NCBI GenBank assembly: GCA_964016885.1
Contig: OZ024740.1
Coordinates: 302,312,001-302,376,000 of the forward strand
DNA length: 64,000 bases
Origin: Eledone cirrhosa
Taxonomy: Eukaryota
Reading direction: 5' to 3'
Shown: positions 23,776 to 61,901 of the stretch, one piece after another
Layout of the letters: every line of letters starts with the position of its first letter
Position numbering within the stretch: the stretch's first letter is position 1
The notes under the pieces: model-generated
Seen by the model: the letters and a program-made list of their open reading frames with translations, nothing else
The model's database searches: none
Told to the model about the DNA's origin: nothing
Program-made: the position numbers and the translations under genes

Positions 23776-23980
23776 ATAACAAAGAAGGTGTGGTAATATA
23801 AAAGGTGGACCATAACGCACCAGAGTACTCAATACTTAGGGTAGTAGAGGGCGTAATAGGAAAAGGGTCAAGACCCCGACGGCTAAGCTCCGGCCGTTTC
23901 TACAGTTAGATCCGAACAGTTCAGATCTAACTGTCGAAACGGGCGGAATTCAGCCGTCGGCGTCCTGACTCTTTTCCTAT
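23776..23980 (-). mobile_element. Foldback mini-element family C, copy 1
   Basis: Hairpin 23856-23980 plus unpaired tail 23776-23855; reverse-complement relative of 26426-26620; TA runs on both sides. Confidence 0.85.
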
Positions 23981-24099
23981 ATATATATCTACGTTAACTG
24001 CCGATGTTTTATTTTAATTTTAATTTTAATTTTGCTTTGATTCTGTTTTAATATGATTTTAATTTTTGAATTTAAGTTGCCATTCAGAAATAATATAAT

Positions 24100-24443
24100 T
24101 TATGTCACCCCACTGTGCATCAATATATACATATGTATCTGTATGTCTCTTGCGTTGGAAAGGAGGTCACGTATGTATACAAACATTGAAAAATGCTCCG
24201 AAGACTCCAAACCTCGGTTTGGATGAAACAAATGTAAGCTAATAAATGGTTTGAACATAACTTTGATTCCTGTGAATTCTATATAACTGCTCTGTAGAAC
24301 AACTGATGTTATTACATTGAGCTATTTATCTTACTGGTAATAAGGTAGTAATAAATTACTGTCTTTCACTGTTTAGGATTTAAAATATATATAACTATAA
24401 AAAGTTTTAGTATATACATAACCATAAATAGTATCCTTAATAC
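24100..24443 (+). mobile_element. 3'-terminal fragment of the Hydra-like PLE family found at 39791-44826
   Basis: Aligns by eye with the reverse complement of 39791-40120, including the identical terminus TTAATAC|TATATA and the GCTCCGAAGA..CAAACCTCGGTTTGGA.GAAAA motif region. Confidence 0.85.
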
Positions 24444-24505
24444 TATATATATATATATACATATACATATATACATATATATATATATATATATATATAT
24501 ATATA

Positions 24506-56890: not shown

Positions 56891-59694
56891 TATTATATAT
56901 ATATATATATATATATATCTGTGTGTGTGTGTGTGTGTGTTTTCTGTGTGTGTGCGAGGTGCGAGTGTATGCATATATATATGTATATATATATATATAT
57001 ATATATATATATATATATATGTATTTATATATGGATGTGTGTGTATTTAAATATATATATATGTGTGTGTGTGTGTGTGTGTGTGTGTGTGTGTGTGTGT
57101 GCAGGTGTGTGTGTGCATGTGTGTGCGTGTGAGTGTGTGCGTGGGCAGCTGCAGAAATAGTATAACACAGCTACGCTTCAACCAAATAAGTAGGAAATAT
57201 TTAAAATTATCAAATATTAGAGAAGATTTGGTCCTAACAGATATAGTTTATAATAAGGCATCATAACCATCACCATCTCCATCATCATTATTATCATCAA
57301 CATAATAACCTTCACCATCATTATCATCATCACCACTATCACTACGTCATTACTAAACAGAAATAGATAGGAGAGTGAAGGTGATATGTGTCTGATTGTG
57401 TGTGTGTGTCTGTATGTGTGTTGATAAAGATATGAAATGGGGATGGTTGGGTTGGTATGTAAGATTAGATAAATGTCAGTTAAAAGGTTAAGTCTTGAGT
57501 AGGCGACGGGTGGAGGTTACACAGATGTTGTGATAAGTGGCAAGACGACAGCAATCAATTGAAGACACCGCTTCTTCACTAGTTCACAGAAAGCTTTCAC
57601 ACGAACGACAAATGCTGTTCAGTTTAGCAAACTGAGTCATTTAGGCTTGTCCCTGACATTCGCTTCCTGCTACCAACTTTATTAAAGTGATGTTATAACG
57701 ATTAAAACTATATGGGTGAACGATCTTCTTGAAAATAATGACGAAGATTTTGATGATGAGGGGGGGGGGATGATGATCATCTTGATGAGTATGATGAGGG
57801 TTGCGGTGGAGTGTTAACAGTGATGAAAGTGATGGTTATGCTGGTAGTAATATTTATGAGGTTGACGGTAGTGATGATGAAGATTAAGAGGATTTCCGGC
57901 CCTTATTATTATTAGCATTAATGTGTCTGTCTATGTGTGGGGGGAGACAGAATGTTCTATCTTTTTGTTTAGTGATCACAGATAGACGCGTGTTACAATT
58001 TTGATTGCTGGATATGTCTTTACACTGTATACACAAGAATATGTGGAAGCCTATATGTTTGTGTGTGTTAATGTATGCATTTGTGCCTGTATATGTGTTT
58101 ATATGTCTCCGTGTACGTATAGTTTAATGTTCACGAATCCCTGTGGCTGTAACTGTCATTACTATTAATATATTTAAAATATTTAATGCAGGTGCCATTA
58201 GAACTCTAACTAGATATAATTACGCGAAAAAGAAAGAATAATATCCATCAATGTTTATTGTTTTCATTGGCTTACGGTGTTTTGTTCCTTACCATATAAT
58301 TATCTATAGTTAACTTTTAATAATCCTAGGATGGAATATTTTGACACTACATTTACCATTAATTTTCATGCAGAGGGCGTGTTGGAAGTGTGTATCCATA
58401 AGGAATGTGCAGACTACCTGAAAGAATACACGTTTAAGCTTATTATTTTTGACGTTCAGCATAGACATGTGTGCAATCATCTTTGATTTCAAGCTAATTC
58501 ATTCATTGTGATTGAACATTCCCGGTTAAGTTGAAGCTGAGTGCAGTGGATTAGCAATACCGATAGAGCGTCGAACAAGATGCTTTTTAACATTTAGTTA
58601 ATCCCGTCAAGATTAGTTTTGCCTTTCTTACGAGGTCGATAAAAAAAGTACTAGTAACGATTTGATCAACTTTCTCCTTCCTTTTAAATTTCTGGCTTTG
58701 TTCCAAAGGTAGAAGCAAATAAGTTGGAGTAAACATATATAACTACACGTCAAAATCTCTAAAATTTCAAATTAGAGCTACATAAAAATATCACAATCAG
58801 AATTATATTTGTTGAGGGGTTTTGATTTTTTGATTTGATTGCTTCTTCTTATTGGATGGGGGGACACATTACGATCTTCCAATATTCACAATGACTAGAG
58901 AATCTTACGTGGAATTATTATGTTTTTATATTATGCAGTCAAATTACGATCGTATTGGCAGAATCCTTACACCTTCTGACAAATTCTTTCCATCATGCCT
59001 TCCGGCGCTATACCTTGTGAGATCAAATCACACAAACTACAATCTTGTCATTCACCGTTAGGATCGATTTATTATATTCGCCCACTCTCACAAAGTTGTT
59101 GGCCCTTTGCTAATATGGAAACCGTTAATGGGGTAGAAATAAAAAAAGCAGGGAATAAAAAGCAATGAAAAACAAAGCCCATATACTGGTGAGTCTAATT
59201 AGCATAGTGTTCAATATGAGTAAAATTGAGAATATAATGTGGTGTGAAAAGTATAACATTTAAGGCTTGCAATAATGTTGGGATGGCAAGAAGGCGAAAA
59301 GCATATGAGAAAGTAATTCTGCTTCATCTCCGTCTCCAAGTAACTGGAAAAATACACCTATCACATTCCTTAACAAATATGTTTTCAAAATAATGCACTC
59401 GCCTCTTTAAAATAAGCACTCATCTAGAATTATTATTAGGATAAATATACCAATAGATCTTACAAAATCACACAACCTCTCAATGCTTTCGGCACCTAGG
59501 GCAGAGCAGCACAGTGCAACAACTATCTTGCTCAATGATAACGCATATACATTTCAGAATCAGAACATACTCATATAGATTTAGTATTGTGGTAGCACTG
59601 AACGAACAAAGCGCTTGAGGTTATCAACAAAATTAATAAAATTAATAACAACCAATTAATGAATCAATTAATAAAGAATAACTAATATATATAT

Positions 59695-61466
59695 AAGTTT
59701 ATTTTATTAAGGTTAAATAGTAGAGTCATATTAAGTCCTTTAATAATAATGCTGTGATATATATTTCAATGGCGACAGTGGCCACACTGTTCCGTGCGCC
59801 AGTACCACGACATCGTCAGACAGCTTGTTACATAATAAGGTTATGTTTCCGAGGCAATCCAAATTGAATCGACATGGGAACGGACGAAGTGTGTGCTCTT
59901 GGGTTCTTCATCCGTTCCCTTGTGAGTACCAATTCATCCCCACCGGTCTGCGCAGGCGCAGGTCCGAAGGAAGTTGACCATTAGCTACCGCAGAGTTCAA
60001 CGAAATTCGCCTAGGCAGTTCCCCCTCTCAACCAAACAATGACCTATTCAGGCCTGTAATATATAGCTCACTGCTAGCCACCCCGTCAGTGGCAGTCAGC
60101 CGAAAGCTAGTGGGGTTGGGAGAGTGTGAGTATCAATAGGTCTCAATACAGTATGGACAGTATAATTAAGCATGGACAGTATAATTGGCCATCAATTATA
60201 CTGTCCATGCGTTGAGTGCTTGATTGAATTGCATCAATATTTACCTTAAGAATTTAGCTCCAATTAGTTGAGCGCTCTATGATGTAACCGATATAGTGGA
60301 GAAGAGAGGAACCAACCACCAGCTATACCCGGAAATTCCCTCTACCATGGGGATGGCAATCCCTGATACTGGACGGACATAAAAATAACTTTCGGCAGGA
60401 TAAATACGCGGAAACAAAAACAACAATAAACCCCTATTTTCCTGCACCAAATTGCATTTGAACAGAGGCCCCCTCGATTCAATATATATATGGACAAATT
60501 GACAATCATATTAATCAAGTATCTCCTATCTCATTTTGCATATATGTACTGTATGTATTTTTTGCATGTATTGGATTTTTTTGTGTGTTTTTTTCTTTTG
60601 TGTATTTCATATCTGTGTTTTCTGGGGGGCTCTTGTTCCATGTGATGGAAATTGTAACTATTACCCGCCTAATTACTACGTTTCATACTGTAATTTACCC
60701 TCCGTTCTACTGTACGGTACTATCTTTCAGTATGCAGATAATATATCTGTAACATTAATACCCCTTTCAAAACTTCTTACTTAAACATCTCCCTACGTAG
60801 TAGATAGTATAGGTGCACATATTTTTTTTTACTCACTTCAATCTAGGTTCTCACTTGTACATTTATTTAATTTTTAATTTTTAATTTTTAATATTTGATT
60901 TCTGATTTAAATTTTTAATTTTTAATTTTTAGTTTTAATTTCCAACTCTCATTCATAACTTGAAACCATAATACCTAGAATTAAGTATATTTTCTCTTAG
61001 AGGTTGATGGTCAATTATACTGCCCATGCTTAATGTGGGTAGTATTGAGACCTATTGATACTCATACTCTCCCAACCCCACTGGCTTTCGGCTGACTGCC
61101 ACTGACGGGGTGGCTAACAGTAAGCTATATATTACAGGTCTGAATAGGTCATTGTTTGGTTGAGAGGGCGAACTGCCTCGGCGAATTTCGTTGAACTCTG
61201 CGGTAGCTAATGGTCAACTTCCTTCGGACCTGCGCCTGCGCAGACCGGTGAGGGTGAATTGGTACTCACTTCGTTCGTTCGTTCCCATGTCGGTCGATTC
61301 AATTTGGATTGCCTCGGAAACATAACCTTATTATGGAACAAGCTGTCTGACGATGTCGCGGTACTGGCGCACGGAACAGTGTGGCCACTGTCGCCATTGA
61401 AATATATATCACAGCATTATTATTAAAGTACTTGAACATCTGAAAGTACTTCGCTTTTCCTTATTC
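59695..61466 (+). mobile_element. Non-coding foldback element (family F) with ~430-460-bp inverted arms and a hammerhead
   Basis: ~59733-60195 is the reverse complement of ~61004-61433; tail 61434-61466, then (TA)n; short TA run at the left end. Confidence 0.88.
61342..61415 (+). ncRNA. Type-I hammerhead ribozyme with an enlarged stem II
   Basis: GCTGT-CTGACGA-[45-nt insert with TGGCG..ACAGTG TGGC CACTGT CGCCA]-GAAA-TATATA-TC-ACAGC; perfect helix I; mirror copy at 59751-59824 (-). Confidence 0.75.
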
Positions 61467-61482
61467 TATATATATATATATA

Positions 61483-61901
61483 TATTGGTAAACGGAATAG
61501 AAAATGCTGACAAATTGTTCACAGTTGAAAAATGGTTTAATTAGGAATAAAAGAGTATTAGTGATTGTATGGGTTAGTATTCAGTTGTGGTTTTAAGTTT
61601 TTAAGATTTTACCGGTTGCGCATTTCTAAATGCTTTTCAAAAATAATTTTGAGATAGAGTGTCCGTGTTGTTTGCTCTGATCTGAAAATTCTATCTCAAA
61701 ATTATTTTTGAAAAGCATTTAGAAATGCGCCACCGGTAAAAACTTAAAAACTTAAAACCACAACTGAATACTAACCCATACAATCACTAATACTCTTTTA
61801 TTCCTAATTAAACCATTTTCAACTGTGAACAATTTGTCAGCATTTTCTATTCCGTTTACCAATATATAATAACTTGTGTGTTACACCTCTATTCTTTTAA
61901 C
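61483..61901 (+). mobile_element. Foldback family B, short copy
   Basis: Arms 61483-61657 and 61691-61864, tail to CTTTTAAC|TATA; (TA)n on both sides. Confidence 0.92.

What the first reader, a model, noticed from the sequence alone, without database searches (positions are those of the whole stretch)
23776..61901. Shared insertion geometry: unrelated PLE and PLE-like families form foldbacks inside (TA)n microsatellites
Seen: at least six sequence-unrelated families share one layout: C (23776, 26426), E (25146), the PLE at 45988 and its mini copy at 26230, the Hydra-like PLE at 39791, B (44841, 49293, 61483) and, less cleanly, F (59695). The layout is (TA)n, an inverted copy of the 3' region, a body of very variable length, an unpaired 3' tail of ~30-155 nt, then (TA)n. 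In the clean cases the inverted arm joins the microsatellite at an internal TAT(A) of the element (CCAAT|ATAT, TTCAT|ATAT, TTCCTAT|ATA, AAGTATA, AACTTAT|ATA). Established: PLEs have pseudo-LTRs, inverted 5' partial repeats, 3' tails, minimal hammerheads and microsatellite bias. Inference: because (TA)n is self-complementary, both target strands could prime on or anneal to the element 3' end (twin-priming or snap-back). That would make GIY-YIG/RT PLEs and their non-coding passengers a systematic palindrome generator in this genome.
Basis: partly seen in the sequence, partly recalled or inferred. Interest (0 to 1): 0.85.

Follow-up and report, generated by a model that had tools for sequence, protein, structure and literature searches.

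The report
Twin hairpins mark Penelope foldback ends
Penelope-type jumping genes sit here as fold-back copies inside TA repeats, a layout already published, but in one lineage the copy ends fall just before a short conserved sequence that occurs twice and likely folds into an RNA hairpin telling the enzyme where to start copying, which would explain both the fold-back and the one-sided tail.

Summary
The layout is real: nine listed elements show (TA)n, inverted arm, body, arm, 26-154 nt tail, (TA)n, and arms join the microsatellite at 3-7 nt of internal TA (P about 5e-6). The layout itself is published for Penelope-like elements (PLEs): inverted 5'-truncated copy, one-sided tail, TA targeting, two reverse-transcription start sites. 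New here: 79 Hydra-clade relatives from other animals show a leader with two tandem modules, a TA box 6-8 nt before a bulged hairpin (GCTCY..R-TN-GAGCAC; inner pair Watson-Crick in 55 of 56). Ten of 17 genomic 3' ends lie 0-6 nt before such a hairpin. The same module follows the arm junction of the window's Hydra PLE and family C, and occurs in G, H and F, so these families are not unrelated. B, E and the Neptune-type PLE lack it. Likely mechanism: both cut (TA)n ends anneal to the two TA boxes of one RNA, and a template jump joins the two cDNAs; snap-back remains a live rival. TA is not required for PLE inversion. Genome-wide and read-level checks could not be run.

The parts
39791..44823 (-). 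Hydra-clade PLE with inverted 5' arm: ORF remnant about 43896-41475 (frameshifts and stops), arms 39946-40891 and 43884-44828 (97% identical), 154-nt tail 39791-39945
   Evidence: RWR, DKT, CxCX5C, CxxC, CxH motifs; tblastn E 2e-84 to Hydra-clade relatives; GIY-YIG Pfam E 0.0038, below cut-off
39901..39956 (-). TA box plus bulged hairpin module; hairpin starts 3 nt after the arm junction
   Evidence: (15.3 bits, E 0.079)
24121..24443 (+). 5'-truncated copy of the same Hydra PLE: same tail end, same hairpin (24289), no inverted arm
   Evidence: 84% identity; E 0.22
23774..23977 (-). C1: short foldback, arms 85% identical, 78-nt tail, decayed hairpin 5 nt after the junction
   Evidence: (E 2.3)
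26429..26618 (+). C2: short foldback, 3' half of a hammerhead-like motif in the arm (by eye), 76-nt tail with hairpin (first pair A-U instead of G-C) 5 nt after the junction
   Evidence: (E 0.13)
25148..26154 (-). E: arms 25175-25300 and 26034-26159 (96%), 733-nt spacer, 26-nt tail; no complete hairpin module, no PLE coding remnant
26234..26398 (+). Mini copy related to the 3' end of the PLE at 45986: 42-nt perfect arms, 44-nt spacer, 41-nt tail
   Evidence: (77% identity)
45986..49251 (+). Neptune/Nematis-type PLE, 5'-truncated, broken ORF about 46790-48773, arms 45988-46400 and 48745-49189, 62-nt tail
   Evidence: (DKSG, CX4CxxC linker)
44841..45178 (-). B1: foldback centred on GATC with no loop, deletion in the tail-side arm, 32-nt tail
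45339..45497 (-). B4: arm-only copy starting at the same junction, no tail, ending in a small native hairpin; forms a 474-nt 98.7% palindrome with B1 across a TA run
49296..50989 (+). B2: 1.7-kb non-coding foldback, arms about 800 nt, 5-nt central loop, 33-nt tail
61486..61901 (+). B3: foldback, arms about 180 nt (99%), 33-nt tail
59696..61466 (+). F: head-to-head arms 59733-60195 and 61004-61433, each with a complete minimal hammerhead (59819 minus, 61347 plus); Hydra-type hairpin at 60257 followed by ATG; two different unpaired ends
   Evidence: (26.3 bits, E 2.9e-5)
302..618 (+). G (outside the finding): 140-nt arms, 9-nt loop, joined to (TA)n on the left; Hydra-type hairpin 2 nt after the junction; body runs on to the right
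   Evidence: (30.7 bits, E 1.2e-6)
24507..24803 (+).
   Evidence: (24.6 bits, E 9.8e-5)

Best explanation
These are insertions of Penelope-like retroelements and likely non-coding derivatives, in which the enzyme is inferred to cut both strands of a (TA)n repeat and to start copying one RNA at two fixed internal sites, one from each cut end. In the Hydra clade each site is marked by a TA box 6-8 nt before a conserved bulged hairpin, and the module occurs twice, 55-83 nt apart, between the hammerhead and the start codon (shown by comparison). Each hairpin likely seats one subunit of a dimeric enzyme, and each self-complementary TA end would anneal to a TA box (inferred). The cDNA from the downstream site carries the first hairpin, which is the tail; the cDNA from the upstream site has no tail. 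When one polymerase stops, the other would jump onto the 3' end of the sister cDNA, or the two ends would anneal at a short native inverted repeat, giving arm-spacer-arm-tail: a tiny loop if both stop together, a whole ORF as spacer if one runs to the 5' end (inferred). C, F, G and H are Hydra-type by motif; the PLE at 45986 and its mini copy are Neptune/Nematis-type with other signals; B and E are assigned to PLE machinery by geometry alone.
For: Outer junction fixed per family while inner junctions vary (B 3 of 3, C 2 of 2). Both arms of a copy share that copy's variants (B1/B4 arms 94-97 of 98 within the group, 89-92 of 98 against B2/B3; C2 48/48 within, 34-36/46 against C1). In 79 Hydra-clade loci: 38 hairpin pairs spaced 55-83 nt, ATG 3-40 nt after the second; 10 of 17 genomic 3' ends defined by a direct repeat lie 0-6 nt before a hairpin, at either the first or the second (P 5e-7 or less); TAT/ATA starts at -8..-6 in 37 of 56 distinct modules against 13.3 in shuffles; inner pair Watson-Crick in 55 of 56 (39 C-G, 16 U-A; permutation mean 32.7; 0 of 500 shuffles), with at least 3 changes forced by well-supported branches. 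A model built only from those loci gives 44 hits in 49 further loci, all on the sense strand, and its six best hits in the window are G, F, H, the Hydra PLE, C2 and the Hydra fragment, with junction-to-hairpin distances of 2-5 nt. Upstream-site ends occur as ordinary ends of non-inverted copies (L011, L017, L040, L042, L075), so that site behaves as a start. In vitro precedent: PAc cuts and extends both strands, starts at two internal sites, the tail is the sequence between them, and the protein is predicted to be a dimer (PMC11167929).
Against: No biochemical data for the Hydra clade. For PAc the start site is reported as not homologous to the cut DNA, the opposite of the annealing proposed here. 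Five of 11 foldbacks (G, C1, C2, B1, B2) have loops of about 11 nt or less, and H and B4 end in local hairpins, which snap-back explains as well. The hairpin is not the dominant fold of its own context (z between -1.1 and +0.4), and four of its six pairs are invariant by the way units were defined. Window hits for the Hydra PLE, C2, the fragment and C1 are individually weak (E 0.08-2.3). 7 of 17 relative ends do not fit the ruler. No relative contig shows a complete foldback with an upstream-site arm in TA; the inverted pieces seen (L017, L056, L062, L073, L076, L077) end elsewhere or at contig ends. B, E and the Neptune-type pair have no module; B and E have no PLE coding remnant. G's possible breakpoint range (2-5 nt) misses the 6-7 nt that fits the others.
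Confidence: 0.58

Rival explanations
1. Snap-back: one cDNA starts at the tail end, its 3' end folds back at a short inverted repeat, synthesis returns along the cDNA and stops near the protein-bound hairpin, where the new 3' end anneals to the other TA end.
For: Loops of 0-11 nt in 5 of 11 foldbacks; fold centres at native palindromes (GATC in B1, hammerhead stems in C); local hairpins at the 5' ends of H and B4; about 30 nt of imperfect complementarity at the Hydra inner junction. Self-priming was proposed in PMC3846280.
Against: The upstream site also serves as the plain 3' end of non-inverted copies in relatives and in published consensus sequences; F appears to carry its tail-like end on the short inverted copy; two start sites are shown in vitro for PAc.
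Confidence: 0.27
2. B and E (and perhaps the mini copy) are non-autonomous DNA transposons with long terminal inverted repeats that target TA repeats, and only resemble PLE foldbacks.
For: No PLE coding remnant, hairpin module or full hammerhead in B or E; TA-targeting Mutator-like elements exist (PMC4486113, search listing only).
Against: One arm is always subterminal by a fixed 32-33 nt tail; B copies are 338, 416 and 1694 nt with arms running to a central fold; an arm-only copy (B4) exists; same junction type as the coding PLEs.
Confidence: 0.08
3. Host repair at fragile (TA)n cruciforms makes the foldbacks after a simple insertion, with TA microhomology used by end joining.
For: TA microhomology at every clean junction; TA repeats are fragile sites (search listing); B1/B4 form a palindrome centred on a TA run.
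Against: Repair would not place the junction a fixed 2-6 nt before an element-encoded hairpin across distant animals, nor at one site in all B copies.
Confidence: 0.05
4. Assembly or foldback-read artefact.
Against: Arms differ by about 1-15% with indels, junctions recur at the same base in separate copies, and they coincide with a motif conserved in other animals.
Confidence: 0.02

Closest known systems
Hydra-clade PLEs (Craig et al. 2021, PMC8557442), including Hydra-1_Obim and Penelope-13_HM
   Same: C-terminal GIY-YIG, RWK/DKT/CxCX5C motifs, (TA)n targeting in almost all families, 5'-truncated inverted copy (966 nt in Penelope-13_HM, 945 nt here), tail on one side.
   Different: The duplicated TA-box and hairpin module, its fixed distance to the ends and TA microhomology are not in the main text searched ('hairpin' 0, 'microhomology' 0), though the motif is visible in the paper's own consensus files. 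Tails here reach 154 nt against the 30-40 nt stated; the window copy has a 1.7-kb 3' region and a non-canonical hammerhead core.
PAc, Poseidon PLE of Anolis (Frangieh et al. 2024, PMC11167929)
   Same: Both strands cut and extended, two internal start sites, tail between them, RNA required downstream of the start sites, predicted dimer.
   Different: Start reported as not homologous to the target and inside an AC-rich stem loop within the ORF; inverted insertions are not discussed. Hydra-clade sites carry a TA box matching the target and lie in a non-coding leader.
Adineta vaga Penelope elements (Arkhipova et al. 2013, PMC3846280)
   Same: Inverted pLTRs, palindromes at inverted junctions, optional 31-nt tail, mobilisation in trans, self-priming proposed.
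   Different: Target-site duplications of 8-10 nt reported rather than microsatellite targets; no start-site motif in the passages seen.
L1 twin priming (recalled, not read)
   Same: Second target strand primes internally on the RNA by microhomology and yields an inversion.
   Different: As recalled, L1 inverted and direct parts cover different sequence and the internal site varies; here the arm duplicates the 3' region and the site is fixed.
Animal non-LTR retrozymes (bioRxiv 10.64898/2026.07.22.740005)
   Same: Non-coding, hammerhead-bearing derivatives of PLE ends.
   Different: Defined as tandem arrays with a hammerhead per unit; the elements here are single foldbacks, and B has no hammerhead.

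Membership tests
Hydra-clade PLE (element at 39791) | RWK motif, DKT motif, CxCX5C linker, CxxC and CxH around the catalytic E and N, no CCHH | tested here: met
   RWR, DKT, CNCRANRTC, CNLC, CQH in the translation; criteria from PMC8557442 section 11
Hydra-clade PLE (element at 39791) | RT followed by C-terminal GIY-YIG endonuclease | tested here: met
   Pfam GIY-YIG E 0.0038, below curated cut-off; 42% identity to the C-terminus of homolog P0004; tblastn to relatives over the whole ORF
Hydra-clade PLE (element at 39791) | Canonical hammerhead near the 3' end | tested here: inconclusive
   A hammerhead-like motif with a CCGAAGA core lies about 85 nt before the junction (by eye); no Rfam hit, no descriptor hit, model hit E 1.3 only for the 24188 copy
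Hydra-clade PLE (element at 39791) | Insertion in (TA)n | tested here: met
   TA runs 39738-39790 and 44824-44840
Hydra-clade PLE (element at 39791) | Placement in an RT tree with reference clades | not tested
   No reference sequences in tool form; assignment rests on motifs and similarity to 33 full ORFs bearing the same motifs
Neptune/Nematis PLE (element at 45986) | C-terminal endonuclease preceded by CX2-5CxxC linker | tested here: met
   CX4CxxC then GIY-YIG-like core
Neptune/Nematis PLE (element at 45986) | Neptune versus Nematis by RT phylogeny | not tested
   Homologs P0015-P0164 carry no names
Hydra-type non-coding derivative (C, F, G, H) | Leader module shared with Hydra-clade PLEs at the expected distance from the end | tested here: met
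   strong for G, F, H (E 1e-4 or better), weak for C2 and C1
Non-autonomous PLE (B, E) | Sequence link to an autonomous PLE, hammerhead or start-site module | tested here: not met
   No tblastn hit at E 1e-3 with 248 queries; no model or descriptor hit; E shows only a hammerhead-like 3' half by eye
Non-autonomous PLE (B, E) | PLE insertion signature: inverted truncated copy plus one-sided tail | tested here: met
Non-LTR retrozyme | Tandem units each with a complete hammerhead | tested here: not met
   No tandem units of these families in self-BLAST; only F has complete hammerheads, head-to-head
TIR DNA transposon or MITE (B, E) | Inverted repeats at both termini and uniform family length | tested here: not met
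   One arm subterminal by 26-33 nt; B copies 338, 416, 1694 nt
TIR DNA transposon or MITE (B, E) | Target-site duplication | not testable with these tools
   A TA duplication cannot be told inside (TA)n without an empty allele

The most novel reading that the evidence does not exclude
Hydra-clade PLEs carry a duplicated RNA module, a TA box plus bulged hairpin, that docks the two subunits of a dimeric RT-endonuclease and lets both ends of a cut (TA)n repeat base-pair with one RNA, telomerase-style; two primed cDNAs joined by a template jump then produce the inverted arm and the one-sided tail in one event, giving the missing mechanism for the PLE insertion signature and a sequence tag that identifies non-coding passengers.
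Probability: 0.4. Interest if true: 0.78.

Novelty: new variant of a known kind. Interest (0 to 1): 0.52.

Why it matters
How PLEs make their tandem and inverted insertions and find microsatellites is named as an open problem in PMC8557442, and the one in vitro study stops at two start sites without explaining inversions. A short, twice-repeated, covarying RNA module at a fixed distance from both ends gives exact mutations to test (either hairpin, either TA box, the spacing) on intact 700-aa proteins already in hand. It also offers a tag for classifying non-coding repeats that pipelines would call MITEs or unknown; 13 such elements cover 14,829 of 64,000 bases here.

Tried and rejected
Whole genome: none held, so no genome-wide tally. 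Reads: runs were listed (three hold 65-68% of the words but may be the source sample; no RNA holder listed) but none could be laid, so spanning and empty alleles are untested. Exact 30-nt B-tail pattern in metagenome contigs: 0 matches. Hydra and Neptune-type relatives in viral contigs and Neptune-type in prokaryote genomes: none, so the Neptune-type ends have no comparison set. Rfam: no hammerhead or relevant family, only microsatellite-driven miRNA hits below gathering score. Hammerhead model from relatives: no window hit better than E 0.85. Idea that B and Neptune tails repeat the sequence upstream of the arm start: P 0.04-0.07 for B, 0.21 and 0.98 for mini and PLE, 0.009 for one cross comparison out of eight tests; not claimed. 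Single-sequence folding did not favour the hairpin. Five window motifs were absent from the Craig consensus files (line breaks may hide matches), so B and C match no published Naiad or Hydra consensus by that test. Tree labels were mis-assigned or missing for 10 of 31 rows and the tree is the quick one, so the count of independent swaps is approximate. ARAGORN found no tRNA in the SINE-like copies. Earlier scan notes on this genome: none.

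
Full report
Observation. Self-BLAST and arm alignment confirm the layout at the stated places. 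Nine elements have (TA)n, an inverted arm, a body, the direct arm, a tail of 26-154 nt and (TA)n. In the two coding elements the tail is at the 3' end of the ORF. Arms join the microsatellite at an internal alternating TA run of 3-7 nt; over five families the sum is 24 against a null mean of 5.0 (P 5e-6), over seven 31 against 6.7 (0 of 200,000 draws). 14 of 26 inverted-repeat groups end within 12 nt of a TA run, against 7.6% expected, though several groups are pairs between copies. F is irregular, with two different unpaired ends. Counter-examples exist: a Hydra 3' piece (24121-24443), B4 and two SINE-like copies (24943-25134, 45748-45965; the label SINE is recalled, not tested) sit in TA without the arm. 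Two further elements, G and H, belong to the set.

The coding elements. The element at 39791 has the Hydra-clade motifs defined in PMC8557442 (RWR, DKT, CxCX5C, CxxC, CxH) and a weak GIY-YIG hit; one homolog is named from Octopus bimaculoides at 50% identity, which with the AT-rich repeats suggests a mollusc host (inference). The element at 45986 has a CX4CxxC linker before a C-terminal endonuclease, as in Neptune/Nematis. Both ORFs are broken. B, C, E, F, G and H have no PLE coding remnant.

What is already in print. PMC8557442 (abstract, passages, sections 11 and 15, supplement parts 1, 2, 24, 52, 53; figures not seen) describes an inverted 5'-truncated copy flanking the unit, a 30-40 nt tail at one end, (TA)n targeting by Hydra and Naiad, octopus families of both, and a Hydra family with a 966-nt inverted copy. 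PMC3846280 (passages) describes inverted pLTRs, junction palindromes and self-priming. PMC11167929 (parts 1-2 of 4 and passages; supplements not seen) shows both strands cut and extended, two internal start sites with the tail between them, and a start not homologous to the target. The layout is therefore known, and it also occurs in PLEs that do not target TA.

What the relatives add. A scan of metagenome contigs gave 79 Hydra-clade loci, the best 80 kept of 291 confirmed among 603 candidates; 33 hold near-complete ORFs, all with DK[TS] and 30 with CxCX5C. Between the hammerhead and the start codon they carry two copies of a module: GCTC, a variable stem-loop, a 2-nt bulge, GAGCAC. 38 pairs are spaced 55-83 nt, with an ATG 3-40 nt after the second. 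The pair next to the bulge, not used to define units, is Watson-Crick in 55 of 56 distinct modules (39 C-G, 16 U-A, 1 U-G; permutation mean 32.7), beats 500 shuffles and all slid controls, and changes at least three times on well-supported branches of a quick tree with 10 of 31 labels missing or mis-assigned. TAT or ATA starts 6-8 nt before the hairpin in 37 of 56 modules (shuffle mean 13.3). Where a second copy in the same contig shows the continuation, 10 of 17 genomic ends lie 0-6 nt before a hairpin, some before the first and some before the second; 7 do not (P 5e-7 or less). The loci come from few sample sets and include near relatives; modules were thinned at 75% identity. Published consensus ends fit the two classes by eye.

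Back in the window. A covariance model built from 51 modules of those loci hit 49 further loci 44 times, always on the sense strand (some are close relatives of training loci). In the window its six best hits are G (E 1e-6), F (3e-5), H (1e-4), the Hydra PLE (0.08), C2 (0.13) and the Hydra fragment (0.22); C1 ranks eighth. A descriptor scan gave 8 hits, 6 in these elements, against 1.3 in shuffles. Junction-to-hairpin distances are 3, 5, 5 and 2 nt. C and H swap the first pair to A-U. C's hairpin-to-end distance (72-77 nt) matches the module spacing; the Hydra PLE's is about double. F holds two complete minimal hammerheads (descriptor null 0.15 per window). So C, F, G and H are Hydra-type, and the families are fewer than six independent lines. 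B, E and the Neptune-type pair show the geometry and the TA junction but no module.

Mechanism. Shown: fixed outer junctions, variable inner ones, arms from one source, two end classes tied to two modules, TA boxes at the ends. From established work: two-strand cutting, two start sites, predicted dimer (PAc). Inferred: each hairpin seats one subunit; each cut (TA)n end, being self-complementary, pairs with a TA box; the downstream-primed cDNA carries the tail; a template jump or annealing at a short inverted repeat joins the two cDNAs. This accounts for tiny loops, long ORF spacers, tail-less single copies (B4) and tails on either copy (F). Snap-back of a single cDNA explains the tiny loops and the local hairpins of H and B4 equally well and may coexist. 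Against the model: weak individual scores, no dominant fold, no complete foldback among relatives, and PAc's non-homologous start.

Novelty. Nine literature searches and the texts read (also PMC4209133 passages; PMC13282606 parts 1-2 of 3; bioRxiv 10.64898/2026.07.22.740005 parts 1-3 of 5) did not describe the module or TA-box priming. Repbase reports, older subscription papers on Penelope, Lunse et al. 2017 (recalled) and unseen supplementary figures may bear on this. Interest 0.52.

Noticed in passing
window 590-2418: Body to the right of G, ending in (TA)n at 2418, with hammerhead-like cores at about 1274 and 2309; possibly a decayed or deleted PLE in the canonical inverted-pLTR arrangement; no coding hit.
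   Followed up: partly
window 51027-52192: TA-flanked segments with a 42-nt direct repeat (51026, 51448), a complete minimal hammerhead at 51184 (+) and a hammerhead-like core at 51618 (-); another likely PLE-derived unit without an inverted arm.
   Followed up: partly
window 45022-45495: 474-nt, 98.7% palindrome centred on a TA run, formed by B1 and B4 end to end; the one structure that could be an assembly artefact or a single double insertion.
   Followed up: partly
window 24943-25134 and 45748-45965: Two SINE-like copies (81% identical) each flanked by (TA)n on both sides, no arm; their 3' end resembles 52168-52192.
   Followed up: no
window 43884-43920: Inner junction of the Hydra PLE: about 30 nt of imperfect complementarity between the ORF start region and the 3' arm.
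   Followed up: partly
window 11706-11785: 80-nt hairpin next to an (ATAC)n-type repeat, not TA-associated.
   Followed up: no
window 13945-20436, 29103-34511, 36302-39077, 2447-3355: Decayed non-LTR retrotransposons (RVT_1 and AP-endonuclease Pfam hits for three of them).
   Followed up: no
L003:2504-3117: Two different Hydra-clade elements end to end in one TA run, both ending just before the position of their second hairpin.
   Followed up: partly
L004:2590-2640: A Hydra-clade end inserted in an (ATTT)n repeat, with matching letters at the template site instead of TA.
   Followed up: no
L017, L056, L062, L073, L076, L077: 5' inversions of internal ORF segments in Hydra-clade loci, resembling L1-type twin priming rather than the fixed-site arm.
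   Followed up: partly
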